NCBI RefSeq assembly: GCF_035594765.1
Contig: NC_085845.1
Location: 131,022,897 to 131,086,896 of the forward strand
DNA from: Anolis carolinensis
Lineage: Eukaryota
Reading direction: 5' to 3'
DNA: 64,000 nt
Made by a program: the position numbers and the translations under genes. The notes beneath the pieces are model-generated. The model was not told the DNA's origin. It ran no database searches and saw nothing but the letters and a program-made list of their open reading frames with translations. This document shows, piece by piece, positions 1,781 to 64,000 of the stretch (within the stretch, counting starts at the first letter, position 1; every line of letters begins with the position of its first letter).

Positions 1781-3080
1781 TTAGAAATGCAGTGAAATCC
1801 TATTAGTGAATTGTGAAGATGCATGTCAGATCAGCAGGTGAATCTCTATCCCATGATCTGTCTATTAATTGACCGAGAACATCACCGTCTTTCTAGATTG
1901 AATTTCAGTTTATTTCCTATCAGGAATGAATTGAGTGGTAAAAAACACTGTTTTGGGAGTGAAATGTCTTTATTGGGTTGTTGTGGAAAAGAGTAATAGA
2001 ACTGGGTGTTATCTGCATACTGATGGAAATGAACTGCAAAATTCCAGGCAACCTCTCCCAGATGTTTAATCTATAGTCGACCTTTCCGTTTTTGGGTTTT
2101 ATCCTCACAGTTTAGATTATTTGTGAGCTCATACCACTGCATGCCTCTCTTTTAGTTGGGGCCATCTCTAGGATGTGAGTGAGATGGGTTGTCCTGCCCC
2201 TCCCTCCCTCCCTCCCTCCCTCCCTCACACAATGTATGGCTCCCAAAGCTGGGCTGCCATTTGAACAGTCATACAGTCAAGAAGTGGGAGGAGGTAAAAG
2301 ATCACCCAACTCCTGAAGATGGGCTGCTGTATGAACATCCAAACAATAGCCCTGTTATCAGTAGGTGAGCAGGAGGCTTGCATAGGGTCCTGAAGATAGG
2401 ACTGCCCTATGAATCTTCATTGTACAGGTCCATCATTGGGAGCTGGGAGTAGGAGAGAGAAGAAAGAGTCTTTCTAATATTGCTCCTGAACTCGGGGTTA
2501 GCATATTCCAGAACTTGGATGGTCTCACCGGCCATGTTTCAGCTGTTCTGACATTTTGGAAGGGCACAGTCATGTTCAAATGACCGTTATCTGGAGAGGC
2601 CAGATTGAGGTTGCATCATTCCCCATCATTTTTAGTGCTGATTTGTGGGCGGTGGTTCTTATAGTTTGAGGCCCATAAAGGGAGCACCCCCCCCCCCCCA
2701 AAAAAAGCCTATCTACATGTAAACAATTTTAATGTTTTGAAACAGAAAAAAAGCTTTTGTGGCTAATCTGGGGGAGATGCTGGGTTTGGAAACCCGTGAC
2801 TACAAGGGATGTGTGTGACACACAGTCTGCACTATCTCCACTCCTGTTCTGGACTTTGGAACTTAGTTGTAGGGAAAGCTAGAATCAATTCTTCTGTGTC
2901 ATCTCGTCTGACATCAGACAAAGCCTTTTACATTCTGACAAGAGTTTTATGAGCTATTGGTTGTTACTGTTCTTGAAGACTTTTTAAAATGTGGTGCTGT
3001 ACTGATTATTAGATAATATTTTTTATTTTGTCTTTGTAATGCACCTTTTAAATTATTTTAATATTACTGATACTATACTT

Positions 3081-3412
3081 AAAGGTAAAGGTAAAGGTTT
3101 CCCCTGACGTTAAGTCCAGTTGTGACCGACTCTGGGGGTTGCTGCTCATCTCCATTTCTAAGCTGAAGAGCCAGCGTTGTCCATAGACATCTCCATGTCA
3201 TGTGGCTGGCATGACTGCATGGAGCGCCGTTACCTTTCTGCTGGAGCAGTACCTATTGAGCTACTCACATTGGCATGTTTTTGAACTGCTAGGTTGGCAG
3301 AAGCTGGAGCTAACAGCGGCCACTCACACCGCTCCTGGGATTTGAACCTGGGACCTTTCGGTCTGCAAGTTCAGCAGTTCAGTCCTTTAACACACTTCAC
3401 CACCGGGGCTCC
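3081..3412 (-). mobile_element. Sauria SINE, full length
   Basis: (ACCTTT)n tail, conserved body and tRNA-derived head (GGAGCCCC..GGTTCAAATCC) on the minus strand. Confidence 0.95.
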
Positions 3413-6996: not shown

Positions 6997-7952
6997 CAGT
7001 GGTTCCCAAACTTATTTGGCCTACCACCCCCTTTCCAGAAAAAATATTACTTAGCGCCCCCTGGAAAGGGTGTGTGGCTTAGAGGGGTGGGCGTGGCTCC
7101 TGCTCAAGAGGGCAGGGCTGAGCCTCTCCCCTAGTCCAAGATGCAGAGCTGGGAGGGGGAGGTGGGCGGGGCCACAAATGGGTGGCCAGGACTGGGATGG
7201 ACGGAGTTACGAGCTCTGAGGCAGGGTTGAGCTTCTATCCCTGTCCTGCGGCGCCTGCCAGGACAAAGGGGGTGGGGTTAGAGGAGGGGGCGGGGCCTCT
7301 TCCCAAGTGCCTGACAGGGCTGAACCTCTATACCCCGCCCCCATGTTCTAACAAGCGCCTCAGGGAAGGTATACAGAGGCTCAGCCCTGTCTCACACTCT
7401 TGGGAAGAGGCCCCACCCCCACCCCTAGACCCACCCTTTAGTCCTAAAAGGCCTCTCAGGAAAGGTATAGAGGCTCAGCCCTGTCTTGGGCTCTTGGAAG
7501 GAGGCCCCGCCCCTTCCCTAGCTCTGCCTTCTGTGTCCCAACAAGCACCTCAGGAGAGGTATAGATTCTCAGCCCTGTCTCGGACTCTTGGGAAGAAGCC
7601 ACGCCCACTCCTCTAGCTCCGCCCCCTGTGTCCTAACAGGCGCCTCAGGGGCTCAGCCCTGTCTCCAGCACTTGGGAAGAGGCTCTGCCCCTCCCCTGTG
7701 CCCACCCCCATGTTCTAGTAGGTGCCTCAAGAGAGAGGTAGAGGTTCAACCCTGCCTCACACTCTTGGAAGAGGTCCCGCTATGAGCGGAATACATACAT
7801 CAATTTTTCTAAATTTTCTATTCTTTCTTTTCTGCTTTCACTTCCCCCTAACAGTTATTCATCGCCCCCAAATGCACCTGTGGCCATCACCGCCCCCCTG
7901 GATTGCTGCAGCGCCCACCAGGGGGCAGTAGCGCCCACTTTGGGAATCACTG
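6997..7952. mobile_element. Non-autonomous hAT (Buster/Charlie-type) element
   Basis: TIRs CAGTGGTTCCCAAA and TTTGGGAATCACTG; 8-bp TSD GCCTAGTG/GCTTAGTG with central TA. Confidence 0.9.
7330..7780. repeat. GC-rich ~94-bp minisatellite inside the hAT element
   Basis: Unit start CAGCCCTGTCT recurs at about 7382, 7476, 7570, 7654 and 7747 (last copy degenerate); inverted copies at about 7070-7330. Confidence 0.85.
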
Positions 7953-17405: not shown

Positions 17406-17444
<39 letters not shown>

Positions 17445-17718
17445 AAGAATAATAAAGAGGGTTGGAAGAGACTCTTTGGGCCATTGAGTCCAACCTCCTT
17501 CTGCCTTTGTGCACCAAAAGCACAAGCAAAGCACCCCTGACAGATGGCCTCCCAGCCTTAATAATAATAATAATAACAACAACAATAACAACAACAGTAA
17601 TAAAGAGGGTTGGAAGAGACCCCTTGGGCCATTTAGTCCAACCCTCTTCTGCCTTTGTGCATCAGAAGCACAAGCAAAGCACCCCTTGACAGATGGCATC
17701 CCAGCCTCAATGTTAATG

Positions 17719-17769
<51 letters not shown>

Positions 17770-46749: not shown

Positions 46750-48095
46750 TCTATATTTTTTATATTTATATTTACATAATAGAATTGAAAGTGTGGATGT
46801 ATGTGGCTAGATCTCCCACTTCCACAAACAGCTATGACCTCCCCTCTCCCCCAATGAGGACCCACCTGACATTGGAGGTTATAGAGAGCAACATGAATAT
46901 GTACAAGAGCCGCCAACTCCTGCCAATGTTCTCCACAAACACAATACTGCCCACCACCCACGTGAATGCTTTCATACAGGGACAATTTCATCCTAGATTC
47001 TATGTATTTCCTCCACCATAGGCGTCTCAGTGTTTCTTATTCTCTCAGTTGGTTTGGAATTTGCATGATCCTACCCACTGCCTCTCTCCTAATCCTTTCC
47101 TACTCTTTTCTACCACGCACAGCAGAATTGATCAGCAACTGAACATATCGGAAGGGTTTGAGGGACTGACTCAACATGATGGAAGTTATAGTTCACCCTG
47201 CATCACGACAAAGCATTGTGACCCCACTGACAATGGACCTGGACCAAATTTGGCACTCAAAAACCCCATGACCAATGCAAAATAGTGGAAAGACTTGGGG
47301 TGGATTGACCTTGATTTATAGGAGTTATAGTTCATCTACATCCAGAGAGCACTGTGAACCCAAACAACGATGGATCTGATCTGACCTAATACACCCAAAT
47401 TTGAATACTGGAGGAGTTTGGGAGGGATTGACCTTGACATGTGGGAGTTGTAGGTACTGGGATTTATAGTTCACCTGCAATCAAAGAGCACTCTGAACAC
47501 CAACGATGAACCCGGACCTAACTTGGCACACAGAACCCCCATGACCAACAAAAAATAATGGAGGCTTTTTGGGGGAGTTTGATGTGATTTGGGGGAGTTA
47601 TAGTTTACCTACATTTTGAGAGCACTGTGAACCCCAATGACGATGGATCTGGACCAAACTTGGCGCAAATATCTGATTGTCCAAATTTTGTATATCTGAG
47701 AGACTTGGGAGGATTGATCTTGATTTTTAGGAGTTGTAGTTCACCTATATCTAGAGAAACTGTGACCCCAACTAACGATGGGCCTGGATCAAGCTTAGCA
47801 CATAGAAGCTCCATTATCAACTGAACATACTGGAAGCATTTGAGGGGGCTGACCCACCATGGGGGGAGTTGAAGTTCATCCTGCAGCAAGAGAGCACACT
47901 CAACCTGACCGATGATGCATCTGGAACAAACTTGCCATACATGCCCAACATGACCAACTTGAAGTACTGATGGCATTTGAAGGGGTTAACCTGCCATCAT
48001 GTGAGTTGTAGTTCACCCACATCCTTATGCATTTTCTAATGGGAGCATTTATATATAAAAAAAGCAAAGACTGGCTTTCTCTAATAAGTTAGTAC
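46750..48095 (+). mobile_element. Helitron-like non-autonomous element with ~135-140-bp internal tandem repeat
   Basis: TC start into an AT-rich head; repeated GGGAGTTGTAGTTCACC..GAGCACTGTGAACCC..GATGGATCTGGACCAAACTTGGC units; shares TTATGCATTTTCTAATGGGA with 10973-10992. Confidence 0.6.
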
Positions 48096-54499: not shown

Positions 54500-55257
54500 T
54501 GCTGCTGCTGCTCAGTCGTTTAGTCATCTCCGACTCTTCGTGACCTCATGGACCAGTCCACGCCAGAGCTCCCTGTCGGCCGTTACCGCCCACAGTTCCT
54601 TCAAGGCCAAGCCAATCACTTCAAGGATACCGTCCATCCATCTTGCCCTTGGTCAGCCTCTCTTCCTTTTTCCTTCCATTTTCCCCAGCATTTTGATCTT
54701 TTCCAAGCTTTCCTGTCTCCTCATGATGTGGCCAAAATACTTCAGCTTTGCCTCTAATATCCTTCCCTCCAGTGAGCAGTCGGGTTTTATTTCCTGGAGT
54801 ATGGACTGGTTTCATCTTCTCGCGGTCCAAGGCACTCTCAGGATTTTCCTCCAGCACCAGAGTTCAAAAGCGTCTATCTTCCTTCGCTTAGCCTTCCTTA
54901 TGGTCCAGCTCTCGCATCCATAGGTTACTATGGGGAATACCATTGCTTTGACTATGCGGACCTTCATTGCCAGTGTGATGTTTCTGCTCTTCACTATTTT
55001 GTCAAGGTTGGCCATTGCTCTCCTTCCAAGAAGTAAACGTCTTCTGATTTCCTGGTTGCAGTCTGCATCTGCAGTGATCTTCGCGCCTAGAAATATAAAG
55101 TCTGTCACTGCCTCCATGTTTTATCCCTCTATTTGCCAGTTATCAATAGGTGTAGTTGCCATGATCTTGGTTTTCTTGACGTTTAACTGCAACCCAGCTT
55201 TTGCACTTTCTTCTTTCACCTTGGTGATAAGGCTCCTCAGCTCCTCCTCGCTTTCGG
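54500..55257 (-). mobile_element. BovB LINE 3' fragment (758 bp)
   Basis: ESEEELRSL..GLQLNVKKTKIM..FIFLGAKI..YGCESWT; perfect 12-bp TSD GCTCACACATAC. Confidence 0.97.
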
Positions 55258-56874
55258 GCTCACACATACACCATATAGCAAACAAAGCAAGAATGGAGGG
55301 CTTGCTCAAAAAGATGTATCAACTCATCCAATATGTCTACCTTTTAACAGCTCATGTGATGAGGCAGCAGTTGCTGTCTGTTTAAATTTTGTTTGATTAC
55401 AGGTAAGATAAAAATTGTGCAGATTGACCAGAACCCTGTTGGTATGCATACACCAGGTCCCTTAGGGAAGCAGCTGAACATTTTTGTTTGTAGTAGAATG
55501 TATGACTCCAGTTCAAGGTTGTGGTAGCGGAGTTGTGTTTGTAGTGCCACTGAACAGGCATTGGGCATGCAATGTGCATTCCAGTGCACATCTGTCTTTG
55601 GATTCAGGTGCACAGTAAGTTGTGCATTAGGGTGTAAAATCAACTGCATGCTGTTGCAGTTAGGCCCAGTGGTTACATAGTAGCACAATTACTGAGTAAC
55701 TCCATATGTGGGAATTTACTCTACGATATTCCAATGCTGAATTTTGGACATTATCTGCTGGATAAAATCCTTACAATTTCATAACAGTATCCTTTTTTGG
55801 TGCATTCTTGTTCAGTGAGTTAAGATTTACATTTCTACAAGGAAGCTAGAAAATTATACTGTACAATAAAATTTTCTGTGAATATTGTCCATGGTTTGAG
55901 GCTTTGTTTATACTTATTGAATTGGTACAGGACCGCTTGCTTTAATACAACTGACTAATATTGTGTTAGTCGTGCCAATCCCCTTTATATGTTATGCCAA
56001 CTAACTTCAAAAGATGTTTTGATTTTATTACTTCTTCTGCTTCATAAAGAGGTTGAACGGACATCCCTTGTGTTTTTTCACTTGTCTGTTTTGCTCAGCA
56101 AAAGCCCACACTTCCATTTTTGACTCCTTACAGTTGTATTTTCTCCCCACACTTTTCTATTTATGGACATCAGCTCTTGCAAAAGCTTTCAAATCTAGTC
56201 AAATTGATAGCTTCTGAAACATGGAAATGTCAACAGAGTTTGGGTTCAACTGAACTCTAACAAGCCTTTTGAAGTTTACATCTGCTTAGATTCTGTTCCC
56301 AACTGTCAGACCAACCCAAGAATAAGAAGATATAAATAGCTTGGCAGCATCTTGCACTTCCAAACTATCTACACCTAATTTCAGTAGGTTTTATGTCTTT
56401 GTTGAGCCTGGCCAGTGTATGTGCTTAAACTAGGTAGGCTTGCCAAAAAGAAGTATATTTTAAACAGTGAAACCAGCCTCTGCTGCATTTGAAAAGGATA
56501 GCTCTTCCTGTGGTCATGTAAACAATCCTTTTTCTTTTCCTTGTTTTCTTTCAGTATTCTTTTTTTAAAAAATACATTGGGTGGTAACTGTAAAAGAAAA
56601 TTCAAGGTTTAGATTTCCTTTCTGAAATGCTATTTACAAACAGAAAGGGTGGAGGGAAAAGAAGTAAATCTTAAAATAATAAGCAGCATCCAATTTATTG
56701 CATAGGCCATTACACATTTTGCTGCCTCAAATGTTAGCACTGTTTCTGGATATATTTGATCTGCTGATTCCAAAATGGCACCAGTTTTCCCTATTGGATT
56801 TAGTTTTTGAGATACAGAACATATGCCATGGAGACATATGCCATCTGCCACATTGACTAGCCTATTTAGTCAGT

Positions 56875-58145
56875 CTTTTAGATGTGAACATCTAGAAACA
56901 AATGCGGTCATTGCTAATAGCCAACACGGATTTACCAAAAACAAGTCATGCCAGACTAATCTGATCTCTTTTTTCAATAGAGTTACGAGTTGGGTCGATA
57001 CAGGTAATGTTGTGGATGTAGCCTACCTGGATTTCAGTAAGGCCTTCGACAAAGTCCCCCACAACCTTCTGGCAAACAAGCTAGTCAAATATGGGCTAGA
57101 CAAAACTACGGTTAGGTGGATCTGTAATTGGCTAAGTGAACGAACCCAAAGGGTGCTCACCAATGCGTCATCTTCATCTTGGAAAGAAGTCACGAGTGGA
57201 GTGCCGCAGGGTTCTGTCCTGGGCCCGGTTCTGTTCAACATCTTTATTAACGACTTAGATGAAGGGTTAGAAGGCACGATCATCAAGTTTGCAGATGACA
57301 GCAAACTGGGAGGGATAACTAACACAGGAGCAGAATTTAAAACAATCTTAACAGATTAGAGAATGAAGTTCAACAGGGACAAATGCAAGATACTTCACTT
57401 CGGCAGAAAAAATGGAATGCAAAGATACAGAATGGGGGACGCCTGGCTAGACAGCAGTACATGTGAAAAAGATCTTGGAGTCCTTGTGGACAACAATTAA
57501 AACATGAGCCAGCAATGTGATGCGCCTGCTAAGAAAGCCAACGGGATTTTGGCCTGCATCAATAGGGGTATAGCATCTAGATCCAGGGAACTCATGGTTC
57601 CCCTCTACTCTGCCTTGGTCAGACCACACCTGGAATACTGTATCCAATTCTGGGCACCGCAGTTGAAGGGAGATGTTGACAAGCTGGAAAGCGTCCAGAG
57701 GAGGGCAACTAAAATGATCAAAGGTCTGGAGAACAAGCCCTATGAGGAGCGACTTAAAGAACTGGGCATGTTTAGCCTGCAAAAGAGAAGGCTAAGAGGA
57801 GACATGATAGCCATGTACAAATATGTGAGGGAAAGTCATAGGGAGGAGGGAGCAAGCTTGTTTTCTGCTGCCCTGCAGACTAGGACGTGGAACAATGGCT
57901 TCAAACTACAGGAAAGGAGATTCCATCTGAACATCAGGAAGAATTTCCTCACTGTGAGGGCTGTTCAGCTGTGGAACTCTCTCCCCCGGACTGTGGTAGA
58001 GGATCCTCTTTGGAGGCTTTTAAACAGAGGCTGGATGGCCATCTGTCGGGGGTGCTTTGAATGAGATTTCCTGCTTCTTGGCAAGGGGTTGGACTGGATG
58101 ACCCGTGAGGTCTCTTCCAACTCTACGATTCTATGATTCTATGAT
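56875..58145 (+). mobile_element. Relatively young 5'-truncated CR1 LINE
   Basis: QHGF..KSCQTNL, YLDFSKAFD, GVPQGSVLGP, FADD and RPHLEYC motifs; (ATTCTATG)n tail; internal deletion with frameshift. Confidence 0.97.
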
Positions 58146-59490: not shown

Positions 59491-60245
59491 CAAACCAGCA
59501 AATGTACTAGTCAGGGAATACAGATGTGGAGGGCAGAACATGGCCAGGAATTGAGTTCATGAGAGGGATGACAAGGAGATTGAAGGAACCAGTAGTTAAT
59601 CATTTCTCAAACAGGTTATTTTTAAAGAGTCAATGAAACTTCTGTTTATATATAGGCCTTCTTAATACAGGAAAAGTTATCACAGCATATGAAACCCAGA
59701 AACATAATAGGTTGACTCATACTAAAGCTATTAACCTGCCTGGTGAAGCCCCTTGACATTGGAAAATGACCTTATATTTTCAGTCTCACAAAACAATGAA
59801 AGACATCATTGTCATCAAGATATTTTTGAGGTGGGGCTTGAGATGCTTTCTCATTGAGGGTGACAACCTTTGGGAATATTCTAGAAAATCCTACTTTGTT
59901 TTAAAGATAAGATTTTGCTTGGTCCACATTTTATTTTAAGTGAACTGACCCAATTCCTTTACTTGCAGTCAAAATGAAATGGAAAAAAATGTCTTGGGGC
60001 CTACATTGGGGAAAAAAGTGGACCAATGCAACAGGGTCTTATGATCTGATTAAATTAGATTGTGGTTAGCAAAATGCATACTCCAGTTATATAAAATGGC
60101 TTAATAAAATTGTGTTCCTTATATAAAATGGCAAAACCAATGCTTGCTATTTGGAATTTTATATTTGAATATTTTGAAGCTGTGGATGCTGAAATATCCA
60201 CATACCGAATAAGTAGATACAGAAGGTTGACAGAAATACATGAAA

Positions 60246-61387
60246 TGTTATGATTGAGCCTCATGGCTCTGTTACTGACAGACGTGGGCGTAAGACTCCT
60301 CGAGAGTCAGATACTCTCGAGGAGCGAGAAAGAAAAAGACTGCGAGACATTTTTGCAGCACCATCTGACGAAGAGTCTTTTGAGGGGTTTACGGAGAGAA
60401 TGGAGGAGGGGCTGGTTAGCTCGGAGGAGGATGAGATGGATTGGACTCGGGTAAGGGAGGAATTGGGTGCCACTGGTCATGATGGGATAGAAGATGAATG
60501 GGGACCTTCAGGATTAGACCCATGGCTTAGCTGGAGGGATGGGACGGGATCCACAGCTGGAGATGCTGTGGGGCGTAGTCAGAGGTGTTCCAGCTCTGAT
60601 GAGGAAAGTGATGAGGAAACGCCCGGGTTAAGGAGGACAGCTGACAGTGATGAGGATTTGTAACTGGCATAAAATGGGGCTTGGGAGCAATTGCAAATTG
60701 CGTTGGGCAAGGTAATCTGGACGAACGCTTGGGATCTGTGTGGGACGCTTTCCTGAAGACTGGTGTGTTTTCCTGTGCTGAGACGTAAGTTGTTTTGGAA
60801 TTCAGGGTCAGACGGCGGGAGGAATTGTGTGGGCATTTGTTTGTGCAAACCTGTGCTTACTCTTATTAGCTTGACCTTCCGTCGTCTTCTTGACGGACGC
60901 CATCTCCTGTTTTGAAAACTCGGACTGAACTGACCACGGCTTGTCTTCCCCCCTTCTTGGACTTGGAATCTACAAACGTCTGCTTCTGGCTTTGATCTAC
61001 GGAAAGGAACTGGGTCTACTCTACTGCTACAATCCTTGGCTGATCTGTTCGTGTTGGAAATCCTGTCTGCTGTGTGTGTGGGAGCGACGCAAGTTACTCT
61101 AAGCACAGTGTTGGCAGCAGAGAGGAATCTGCTGCCAATTAGTTGCATTCTTTTGTATCTTTTGTTCCTCGGCTTTTGTTTTGTTTATCCCCAGGCTGAA
61201 GCAAGCAGTTTGTTTTTACCCGGATTAAACTCCGGTTTAATCCGGTTTATCTTTTGAATGTTTTTCCTTGCCCCTTTTTGCTCCTAAAGGCTAATACTGC
61301 CTGGCCCTTGTATTTTACGGGCATTTTTGAGTTCTGTAATCCAATAAACTCTGTTATCTTGAACCTTGTGGCGTTCTGTCCTTGACA
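60246..61387 (+). mobile_element. Solo LTR, 1142 bp (Gypsy-like retrotransposon)
   Basis: TGTTA...TGACA termini; perfect 5-bp TSD TGAAA; CATAAAA at 60668 and AATAAA at 61343; CpGs retained, suggesting young age. Confidence 0.92.
60250..60663 (+). CDS. LTR U3-encoded acidic protein or protein tail with NLS-like basic patches and an ExFxGF (LEDGF IBD / TND-interacting) motif
   Basis: 137 intact codons filling U3 up to the TATA-like box; frame also open from LTR nt 2; RRGRK..RERKRLRDIFAAPSDEESFEGFT. Confidence 0.65.
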   Translation: MIEPHGSVTDRRGRKTPRESDTLEERERKRLRDIFAAPSDEESFEGFTERMEEGLVSSEEDEMDWTRVREELGATGHDGIEDEWGPSGLDPWLSWRDGTGSTAGDAVGRSQRCSSSDEESDEETPGLRRTADSDEDL

Positions 61388-63414: not shown

Positions 63415-64000
63415 AAAAGATTGACAGGGGAGTGTGTCCCTGTTGGTTCTCTTGGACATCTCAGTGGCCTTCGATACCATCGACCATGGTATCCCTCTGG
63501 GTCGACTCTCCAGAATGGGTATTGGGGGCACTGCTCTGCAGTGGCTCCGCTCCTTCCTGGAGGTCCGTACCCAGTTGGTGAAGCTGGGAGATACCTGCTC
63601 GGACCCCTAGCCATTGTCCTGTGGGGTCCCGCAAGGTTCTATTCTATCTCTTATGCTATTTAAAATCTACATGAAACTGCTGAGTGAGGTCATCCAGAGT
63701 TTTGGAGTGTGGCACCATCTCTATGCAGATGACAGCCAACTCTACTACTCTTTTCCACCTAACTCCAAGGAAGCCCCTCGGGTCCTGGACCAATGTCTGG
63801 CCGCTGTGATGGACTGGATGAGGGCTAACAGGCTGAAGCTTAATCCTGACAAGACAGAGGTGCTCTTGGTCAGTCGCTCAACCAATCGGGGTAAAGGGTG
63901 GCAACCTGTGCTTGACGGGATCACACTCCCCCTGAAGGTGCAGGTCTGCAGTCTGGGGGTCCTCCTAGACTCAGTGCTGATGCTTGAGGCTCAGGTGTCG
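63415..64000 (+). mobile_element. L2 LINE reverse transcriptase region (runs off window end)
   Basis: LLVLLDISVAFDTIDH, GVPQGSIL, YADDSQLY and NRLKLNPDKTE motifs; in-frame stop. Confidence 0.95.

What the first reader, a model, noticed from the sequence alone, without database searches (positions are those of the whole stretch)
60250..60663. LTR-encoded peptide carrying a LEDGF/p75-binding (ExFxGF) motif: candidate retroelement chromatin-tethering system
Seen: the U3 of a TSD-flanked solo LTR is filled by an intact 137-codon ORF that ends just before the TATA-like box. Codons 31-48 read LRDIFAAPSDEESFEGFT (DIF..EGF at 60346-60390). They follow basic NLS-like patches and precede CK2-type acidic serine tracts (SSEEDE, SSSDEESDEE, DSDED). 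Established: host partners of the LEDGF/p75 and HRP-2 integrase-binding domain (CDCA7L/JPO2, MLL1, POGZ, IWS1) use a helix, an acidic linker and FxGF, tuned by CK2 phosphorylation, and lentiviral integrase uses the same domain to target transcribed chromatin. From memory, and needing verification, human CDCA7L has VADIFNAPSDDEEFVGF and LRRIFIEDTDSETEDFAGFT, so the match extends beyond the minimal motif. Inference: this LTR element mimics or captured a host IBM to tether integration, or an accessory protein, to LEDGF/TND-domain elongation factors. I know of no description of this for a reptile LTR element.
Basis: partly seen in the sequence, partly recalled or inferred. Interest (0 to 1): 0.9.

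Follow-up and report, generated by a model that had tools for sequence, protein, structure and literature searches.

The report
Lizard retrotransposon integrase mimics LEDGF partners
The reading frame in this solo LTR is the tail of the integrase of an abundant, recently spreading lizard retrotransposon; where its relatives carry a chromodomain it carries a conserved short motif like those host proteins use to bind LEDGF/p75, so it likely hitches onto the same chromatin reader HIV uses, though binding and target-site bias are untested.

Summary
Observation confirmed, interpretation sharpened. Window 60246-61387 is a solo LTR (5-bp TSD) of a young, multi-thousand-copy Tf1/sushi-type Gypsy family of Anolis. 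In full-length copies a 1214-codon pol frame runs through the polypurine tract into the 3' LTR, so the 137 codons are the C-terminal tail of integrase, not a free peptide; they lie upstream of the inferred transcription start. The family has no chromodomain, unlike most relatives. The tail is under purifying selection, strongest at the motif (shared-variant dN/dS 0.06-0.10; 30 of 30 older copies keep [IL]F-x8-FEGF). It has the helix, 8-residue acidic linker and FxGF of LEDGF/HRP-2-binding motifs. A separate wall-lizard lineage carries one or two such motifs after a chromodomain, in unrelated flanks. DNA gives no sign of capture from CDCA7L. Complex prediction with anole LEDGF gave only weak support (0.48, best control 0.00). 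Against targeting: copies are scarce on microchromosomes (7 of 117) and published pooled Gypsy data show no preference for gene-dense regions. Best reading: an integrase-borne LEDGF/HRP-2 tether (about 55%). Not found in ten literature searches.

The parts
60241..60245 (+). left target-site duplication TGAAA
   Evidence: 5-bp TSDs also at 10 other solo LTRs among 30 loci and at 6 of 6 full-length copies
60246..61387 (+). solo LTR (1142 nt) of a Tf1/sushi-type Ty3/Gypsy element; ends TGTTATG...CTTGACA
   Evidence: first 454 nt 100% identical in 40 of 40 scored of 1432 candidates; ends fit the Sushi att motifs TGTYANR/CNTNACA of PMC3601003
60250..60663 (+). U3-encoded C-terminal 137 aa of Pol/integrase (in-frame continuation of the 1214-codon pol frame in the 3' LTR of full-length copies)
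60280..60345 (+). basic patches RRGRK and RERKRLR (NLS-like, inferred); predicted helix residues 23-35
   Evidence: shared-variant dN/dS 0.09-0.14 for codons 11-30
60340..60393 (+). LEDGF/HRP-2-type TND-interacting motif: helix end (L31, I34, F35), 8-residue acidic linker with CK2-type S39, F44-E-G-F47
60418..60435 (+). acidic serine tract SSEEDE (CK2-type consensus, inferred)
60520..60585 (+). second constrained block (codons 91-112), role unknown; may be protein- or promoter-level constraint
   Evidence: shared-variant dN/dS 0.17
60589..60660 (+). acidic serine-rich C-terminus (SSSDEESDEE ... DSDEDL)
   Evidence: dN/dS 0.36 for codons 113-137
60668..60674 (+). TATA-like box CATAAAA
   Evidence: about 30 nt upstream of the self-primer
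60700..60710 (+). 11-nt self-primer, exact complement of the primer-binding site after the 5' LTR; marks the inferred transcription start (U3/R border near 60700)
   Evidence: self-priming is a Tf1/sushi trait (PMC6317226)
60785..60869 (+). 85-nt GT...AG intron-like segment, precisely absent from the short (1056-1057 nt) LTR variant
   Evidence: same skip in contigs of two runs
61343..61348 (+). polyadenylation signal AATAAA
61388..61392 (+). right target-site duplication TGAAA

Best explanation
The ORF is the disordered C-terminal tail of the integrase of a chromodomain-less Tf1/sushi-type retrotransposon, and its conserved helix-acidic-FxGF motif likely binds the integrase-binding domain of LEDGF/p75 or HRP-2, which would tether the integration complex to H3K36-methylated, transcribed chromatin. 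Shown: the frame is continuous with pol, sits where relatives have their chromodomain, and is under purifying selection that peaks at the motif. Inferred: Gag-Pol is made by a -1 frameshift, the tail stays on mature integrase, CK2 phosphorylation of the linker serine raises affinity, and the basic patch is a nuclear localisation signal. Untested: binding and any bias of insertion sites.
For: Read-through: 1214-aa frame PR-RT-RH-IN(H2C2, rve, SH3_Tf2-1) ending in the ORF, no Chromo hit at E<=0.1; 150 of 150 scored copies span the junction without a stop, 128 of them in a 1214-codon frame (counted by eye; best-scoring hits only). Position: of 140 tails of the 150 nearest integrase representatives, 92 match a crude chromodomain pattern at this place; the sister row of this family has a chromodomain and no FxGF (P0309, SH-aLRT 98). 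Selection: pairwise dN/dS 0.16-0.31 against 28 older copies; shared variants 15.5 synonymous vs 5.5 non-synonymous in codons 31-48 (ratio 0.10), 1.06 at the LTR tip; F35, F44, E45, G46, F47 invariant in 29 of 29; 0.06 on 25 intact frames; motif in 30 of 30 older copies chosen by a downstream pattern. Anatomy fits the definition in PMC9987994 (obligate helix, 8-16 aa acidic linker, FxGF special to LEDGF/HRP2); helix 23-35 predicted in an otherwise low-confidence model. Recurrence: 17 proteins of a Podarcis/unnamed lineage carry FxGF motifs after the chromodomain region, three with two in tandem, in flanks unlike this one. Receptor present: anole PSIP1 with PWWP and IBD. Complex prediction: weak support, 0.48 (median of 3) vs best of 3 controls 0.00, runs agree in at least 56% of contacts, partner pLDDT at least 53; at scores of 0.60 or under only 5 of 78 solved complexes and all 4 passing mismatches (of 180) fall, peptides are untested, and like complexes are solved so the pass may be from memory. 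Precedent for integrase-tail tethers: MLV-BET, CRM CR motif in the 3' LTR.
Against: No binding measurement. Sampled insertions are rarer on the small chromosomes and unplaced contigs (7 of 117, 6.0%) than their genome share (15.3%, binomial p 0.003) and no commoner than for a chromodomain-bearing sister family (13 of 111; Fisher p 0.16): no sign of a pull to gene-dense regions, though the proxy is crude, flanks differ between samples and selection after insertion confounds it. Bourgeois et al. (PMC7561263) found pooled anole Gypsy density negatively correlated with recombination and read it as purifying selection without preferential insertion (all Gypsy families pooled). No host exon was recognised around this copy (132 of 286 window ORFs scanned). 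The close match to JPO2 M1 is specific to the youngest subfamily; a profile of 14 copies did not retrieve 6EMO at E<=10. The basic block (codons 11-30) is as conserved as the motif, so selection is not unique to it. The profile search that found the Podarcis motifs had two of them in its query, so their frequency is inflated.
Confidence: 0.55

Rival explanations
1. The tail binds LEDGF/HRP-2, but the benefit is nuclear retention, protection of integrase from degradation or more efficient integration, with little effect on where the element lands.
For: All motif evidence of the best explanation plus the absence of enrichment in gene-dense chromosomes and the pooled-Gypsy pattern. LEDGF stabilises the HIV integration complex (PMC8149907).
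Against: LEDGF and HRP-2 are chromatin readers, so a bound integrase is normally carried to their sites; the motif stands at the usual place of the targeting domain.
Confidence: 0.2
2. The motif binds another TND protein (IWS1, TFIIS, Elongin A, MED26, PNUTS) and links integrase to elongating Pol II rather than to LEDGF.
For: The TND fold is shared by at least 15 human proteins and TIMs share helix plus acidic linker; cannot tell family members apart.
Against: FxGF is described as special to LEDGF and HRP2 recognition and is the invariant part here.
Confidence: 0.1
3. The tail is a generic basic/acidic nucleosome- or histone-binding extension, and the likeness to IBMs is incidental.
For: Other squamate relatives also read 80-110 aa into the LTR with acidic tracts and arginine-rich ends but no FxGF; the E-value to 6EMO is 1.6; constraint covers more than the motif.
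Against: Invariant aromatic spacing under many synonymous changes; same three-part motif, sometimes doubled, in a separate lineage; strict pattern in 13 of 284 held retroelement proteins, all in these two squamate lineages; 0 of 200,000 shuffles.
Confidence: 0.1
4. The ORF is also made as a separate small protein from solo LTRs or a spliced RNA, and acts on host transcription by competing for LEDGF.
For: It begins with an invariant ATG (29 of 29) and thousands of solo LTRs keep it open (26 of 30 older copies open for 136 codons or more); host transcripts reading into an LTR could translate it.
Against: The ORF is upstream of the element's own inferred start; the ATG lies in the integrase attachment sequence at the LTR tip, which explains its conservation; selection measured on shared variants reflects the replicating lineage.
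Confidence: 0.05

Closest known systems
TND-interacting motifs / LEDGF IBD-binding motifs of CDCA7L (JPO2), MLL1, POGZ, IWS1 (PDB 6EMO, 5YI9, 6EMQ, 6EMP, 6EMR; PMC9987994)
   Same: Helix, 8-residue acidic linker with CK2-type serine, FxGF, in a disordered region; 11 of 17 residues identical to the lizard's CDCA7L-like motif 1 and 9 of 17 to its CDCA7-like motif.
   Different: Carried by a mobile element's integrase; no DNA-level relationship to the host genes; binding not measured. POGZ is a domesticated DNA-transposase gene, not an active element.
Lentiviral integrase-LEDGF/p75 tether
   Same: Same predicted host domain and same predicted outcome (integration into transcribed genes).
   Different: HIV-1 integrase binds the IBD through a cleft between two folded protomers; here a linear motif in a disordered tail would do so. 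The element is an env-less Ty3/Gypsy retrotransposon.
MLV integrase C-terminal tail binding the BET ET domain; Ty1 integrase targeting domain binding AC40
   Same: Short motif in a flexible integrase C-terminal tail that engages a host chromatin or transcription factor (Ty1 from abstract listing).
   Different: Different partner and motif; those tails are shown experimentally to steer integration.
Plant CRM group A chromoviruses (CR motif; PMC3059260)
   Same: [quoted passage not shown]
   Different: Plant centromeric elements; the CR motif's partner was not identified in that paper and has no FxGF described; here a specific host partner can be named.
Vertebrate Tf1/sushi chromoviruses (V-clade: Sushi-ichi, Amn elements)
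   Same: Domain order, self-priming, 5-bp TSD, att motifs, tree position among chromodomain-bearing vertebrate elements.
   Different: No chromodomain; 137-aa LTR-encoded tail with an IBM-like motif.

Membership tests
LEDGF/HRP-2-type TND-interacting motif (IBM/TIM) | Short alpha-helix with bulky hydrophobic anchors | tested here: met
   Predicted helix 23-35 (block pLDDT 78 for 21-30, 69 for 31-40); L31, I/L34, F35 conserved in 29 of 29. Prediction only.
LEDGF/HRP-2-type TND-interacting motif (IBM/TIM) | Acidic linker of 8-16 residues | tested here: met
   8 residues between F35 and F44, D40 and E41 invariant; range from PMC9987994
LEDGF/HRP-2-type TND-interacting motif (IBM/TIM) | FxGF | tested here: met
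   FEGF in 30 of 30 older copies and 7 of the 8 hits (the eighth, P0009, does not cover this part)
LEDGF/HRP-2-type TND-interacting motif (IBM/TIM) | CK2 phosphorylation of the linker | not testable with these tools
   S/T39 followed by D-E-E/D fits the recalled CK2 consensus; always S or T; phosphorylation not observable
LEDGF/HRP-2-type TND-interacting motif (IBM/TIM) | Direct binding to the IBD/TND | tested here: inconclusive
   Weak support, 0.48 vs best control 0.00; may reflect memory of solved complexes; peptides untested in the calibration
Tf1/sushi group of Ty3/Gypsy (chromovirus branch) | gag, then PR-RT-RH-IN order with GPY/F-SH3 domain | tested here: met
Tf1/sushi group of Ty3/Gypsy (chromovirus branch) | Self-priming instead of tRNA priming | tested here: met
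   11-nt PBS complementary to 60700-60710; trait per PMC6317226
Tf1/sushi group of Ty3/Gypsy (chromovirus branch) | Placement among chromodomain-bearing elements in RT-RH-IN tree | tested here: met
   Inside an 18-row clade (SH-aLRT 100) whose named members are all squamate, sister to fish and frog elements; quick tree, no reference Sushi-ichi sequence included
Tf1/sushi group of Ty3/Gypsy (chromovirus branch) | Chromodomain at the integrase C-terminus | tested here: not met
   No PF00385 at E<=0.1; the tail follows SH3 after a 30-aa linker. So: a chromodomain-less derivative, not a canonical chromovirus
Captured host gene fragment (CDCA7L/CDCA7) | DNA similarity beyond what the shared residues force | tested here: not met
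   28 of 51 nt in the motif; 4 of 11 shared residues use the same codon; flanks 7 of 36 nt (CDCA7L-like) and 15 of 36 (CDCA7-like); best blastn E 0.56. Ancient capture cannot be excluded
LEDGF-guided integration (lentivirus-like targeting) | Insertions enriched in transcribed gene bodies | tested here: inconclusive
   No annotation available; chromosome-class proxy shows no enrichment (7 of 117 vs 13 of 111)
Stand-alone LTR-encoded gene (nef/sag-like) | Own transcript or splice product with the ORF downstream of a start | tested here: not met
   ORF lies in U3, upstream of the inferred start, and is fused to pol

The most novel reading that the evidence does not exclude
Squamate Ty3/Gypsy retrotransposons have, probably twice, evolved linear mimics of host LEDGF-binding motifs on their integrase tails, one lineage adding them behind the chromodomain and the other replacing it with an LTR-encoded one, and use LEDGF/HRP-2 to steer integration, so that LEDGF hijacking is not confined to lentiviruses and arose by a different molecular route in an endogenous element.
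Probability: 0.5. Interest if true: 0.9.

Novelty: new variant of a known kind. Interest (0 to 1): 0.78.

Why it matters
LEDGF-guided integration is known from lentiviruses, which bind it through folded integrase surfaces. A retrotransposon using a host-type linear motif for the same reader would be a second, convergent solution, and it names a concrete host partner for a vertebrate LTR retrotransposon's targeting domain, which I know of for no other (recalled). The same genome holds thousands of young copies of this family and of a chromodomain-bearing sister, a natural controlled comparison of how swapping a targeting module changes where elements land. The motif is a 17-residue peptide with solved homologous complexes, so binding can be tested directly.

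Tried and rejected
Pfam on the ORF alone: 0 families. ESM Atlas: no usable hit. Earlier scan findings: none by words, sequence or place. Protein search with the ORF alone found only 8 Anolis proteins among 700 candidates; 4 of them are gene models that have absorbed an LTR. Capture from CDCA7L/CDCA7: rejected on DNA comparison. Single origin of the motif: the tree needs two changes and the AU test was borderline, p 0.045 (19 of the 33 rows used), so two origins are favoured but not shown. Expression: no RNA holder listed; the four runs laid are contigs only guessed to be RNA and show cover over all 30 bins but no start, strand or level, and no listed GT..AG joint leading to the tail; not used as evidence. 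Gene context of this copy: 132 of 286 long ORFs scanned, only RT fragments passed cut-offs; unresolved. A gene-body test was considered and dropped: no annotation is available and flank-by-flank exon finding lacked power. In the selection counts L061 and L071 (LTR tip missing) were dropped, and 6 of 30 copies failing an intactness filter; the nine codons of the search pattern were excluded from the overall ratio. P0274's FxGF was set aside as lacking helix and acidic linker.

Full report
Observation. It fills the U3 of a 1142-nt solo LTR at 60246-61387 with a TGAAA duplication. Pfam finds nothing in it. A helix-linker-FxGF pattern, written after seeing the motif, arose in 0 of 200,000 shuffles of the protein and of the DNA.

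What the element is. The genome holds 1432 candidates for the first 454 nt, and all 40 scored are 100% identical; protein hits name Anolis carolinensis. Natural full-length copies have gag (278 aa open frame) and a 1214-codon pol frame with protease, RT, RNase H, integrase zinc finger, core and SH3, and no chromodomain. LTR pairs differ by 0-3 nt and all 6 copies read have 5-bp TSDs; 3 of the 6 have an unbroken pol frame. Pol runs through the polypurine tract into the 3' LTR and ends at the ORF's stop: 150 of 150 best-scoring copies cross the junction without a stop. The primer-binding site is not tRNA-like but the exact complement of LTR bases 60700-60710, the self-priming signature of the Tf1/sushi group (PMC6317226, passages), and the ends fit the Sushi att motifs (PMC3601003, passages). 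Self-priming places the start of transcription near 60700, about 30 nt after the TATA-like box, so the ORF is upstream of the solo LTR's own start and is expressed from the element only as the end of Pol (inference). A slippery GGGAAAA and a strong hairpin (z -3.3, 0 of 200 shuffles) at the gag-pol overlap suggest a -1 frameshift.

Selection. A pattern for nine codons downstream of the motif found 2169 older-subfamily copies (control 0). Of the first 30, all keep [IL]F-x8-FEGF and 26 are open for 136 codons or more. Against the window copy, dN/dS is 0.16-0.31 with pS up to 0.57 (28 copies). Variants shared by two or more copies give ratios of 0.10 for the motif, 0.14 for the basic block and 1.06 for the LTR tip; on intact frames 0.06, 0.09, and 0.17-0.57 further downstream. 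The protein frame, and the motif most of all, is maintained in the replicating lineage. The exact AP-SD likeness to JPO2 is recent: older subfamilies differ there, and their profile does not retrieve 6EMO.

Relatives. Among the 150 nearest integrase representatives most have a chromodomain where this family has its tail (92 of 140 tails by a crude pattern; 3 had FxGF). Two of those three led, through a profile that contained them, to a lineage named Podarcis muralis plus unnamed records: 17 proteins with FxGF motifs behind the chromodomain region, in three cases two in tandem, with tryptophan- or phenylalanine-anchored helices and acidic or S/T-rich linkers in flanks unlike ours (20 of 122 examined including our 3). 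Pfam chromodomain hits are on record for P0137 and P0299-P0305 but not for the P0134 group. Their motifs appear to lie before the PPT, judged from protein sequence only. A strict pattern matches 13 of 284 held retroelement proteins, all in these two lineages. Trees put both in one clade whose named members are squamate, but not as sisters: ours pairs with a chromodomain-bearing, FxGF-less element (98), two changes are needed, AU p 0.045 (quick trees). The host's CDCA7L-like and CDCA7-like genes carry matching motifs at the protein level (11 and 9 of 17) without DNA similarity, so mimicry fits better than recent capture.

Mechanism. The review PMC9987994 (first of six parts and passages read) defines these motifs as helix, 8-16-residue acidic linker and an FxGF special to LEDGF and HRP2; the tail has all three (helix 23-35 predicted). 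Anole PSIP1 has PWWP and IBD. Folding its IBD with residues 20-62 gave weak support: 0.48 against 0.00 for the best of 3 controls, at least 56% contact agreement, partner pLDDT at least 53; in the tool's calibration passes at or under 0.60 came from 5 of 78 solved complexes and all 4 passing mismatches, peptides were untested, and memory of solved IBD-peptide complexes may explain it. Integrase tails are known tethers: MLV to BET (PMC8149907, passages), Ty1 to AC40 (abstract listing only), and plant CRM elements replace the chromodomain with a motif encoded in the 3' LTR (PMC3059260, passages). I therefore favour a LEDGF/HRP-2 tether, about 0.75 for binding and 0.55 for binding that also steers integration.

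Results against. Insertions sampled by flank trinucleotide fall outside the six large chromosomes in 7 of 117 cases, below the 15.3% genome share (p 0.003) and not above the chromodomain-bearing sister family (13 of 111, p 0.16); a third sample gave the same share on C1-C4 as the control (96 of 127 vs 84 of 111). That the small chromosomes are gene-dense is recalled. Bourgeois et al. (PMC7561263, passages and first half of section 9) report pooled anole Gypsy as recently amplified and negatively correlated with recombination, without preferential insertion; their supplements, not read, may hold family-level data. No host exon was recognised in the window. These do not test gene-body targeting directly but they lower it.

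Novelty. Ten searches listed no paper on an IBM/TIM in a retrotransposon integrase, judged from titles and abstract openings; the viral-mimicry passage of the TND review names only lentiviral integrases. The library lacks most subscription journals, Repbase and Dfam were not available, and the family itself is probably catalogued there (recalled); the primary IBM papers were not read. Verdict: a new variant of a known kind (integrase-tail tether), real at the sequence and evolutionary level, with a named partner that is directly testable. Interest 0.78.

Noticed in passing
window 60785-60869: An 85-nt GT...AG segment in the R/U5 region is precisely missing from the short LTR variant (1056-1058 nt), as if a spliced RNA had been reverse-transcribed and founded a sub-lineage.
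   Followed up: partly
L043-L052, after the GDSVM junction (locus nt about 2830-3100 in the strand of the element): A second abundant anole family keeps its chromodomain and also reads about 80-90 codons into the LTR, with an acidic DEEENLGF-like stretch (possibly a partial or decayed motif) and an RRSxRIA end that resembles recalled nucleosome acidic-patch anchors.
   Followed up: partly
proteins P0309, P0313, P0341, P0301, P0304, P0305: Several squamate relatives have long acidic tails ending in arginine-rich motifs after the PPT-like junction, so LTR read-through with short motifs seems a clade-wide habit.
   Followed up: no
L031:3003-3051: Slippery GGGAAAA plus a 12-bp hairpin at the gag-pol overlap, a likely -1 frameshift signal (z -3.3).
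   Followed up: partly
L037:1500-2049 (G000:C2:143718346): An intron-less PSIP1-like copy covering the IBD with one stop, likely a processed pseudogene, about 92 Mb from the PSIP1 exons on the same contig.
   Followed up: no
G000:C2:200847626-200856456, C1:26753391-26769035: Tandem arrays of the element (three to four units about 4-5 kb apart).
   Followed up: no
protein P0009: A database gene model of glucosidase II alpha includes part of this tail, implying a sense-strand LTR copy inside that gene; P0003, P0005 and P0008 are similar chimeric models with LINE pieces.
   Followed up: no
L059 (G000:C1:209480063): The CDCA7-like gene also carries a full helix-acidic-FxGF motif with the same spacing as the element's.
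   Followed up: partly
window 56811-58064, 54815-55320, 63611-64000: Fragments of non-LTR retrotransposon reverse transcriptases flank the LTR; unrelated to the finding.
   Followed up: no
window 7353-7790, 17427-17752, 47225-47923: Minisatellite-like arrays with periods of about 94, 148 and 273 nt.
   Followed up: no
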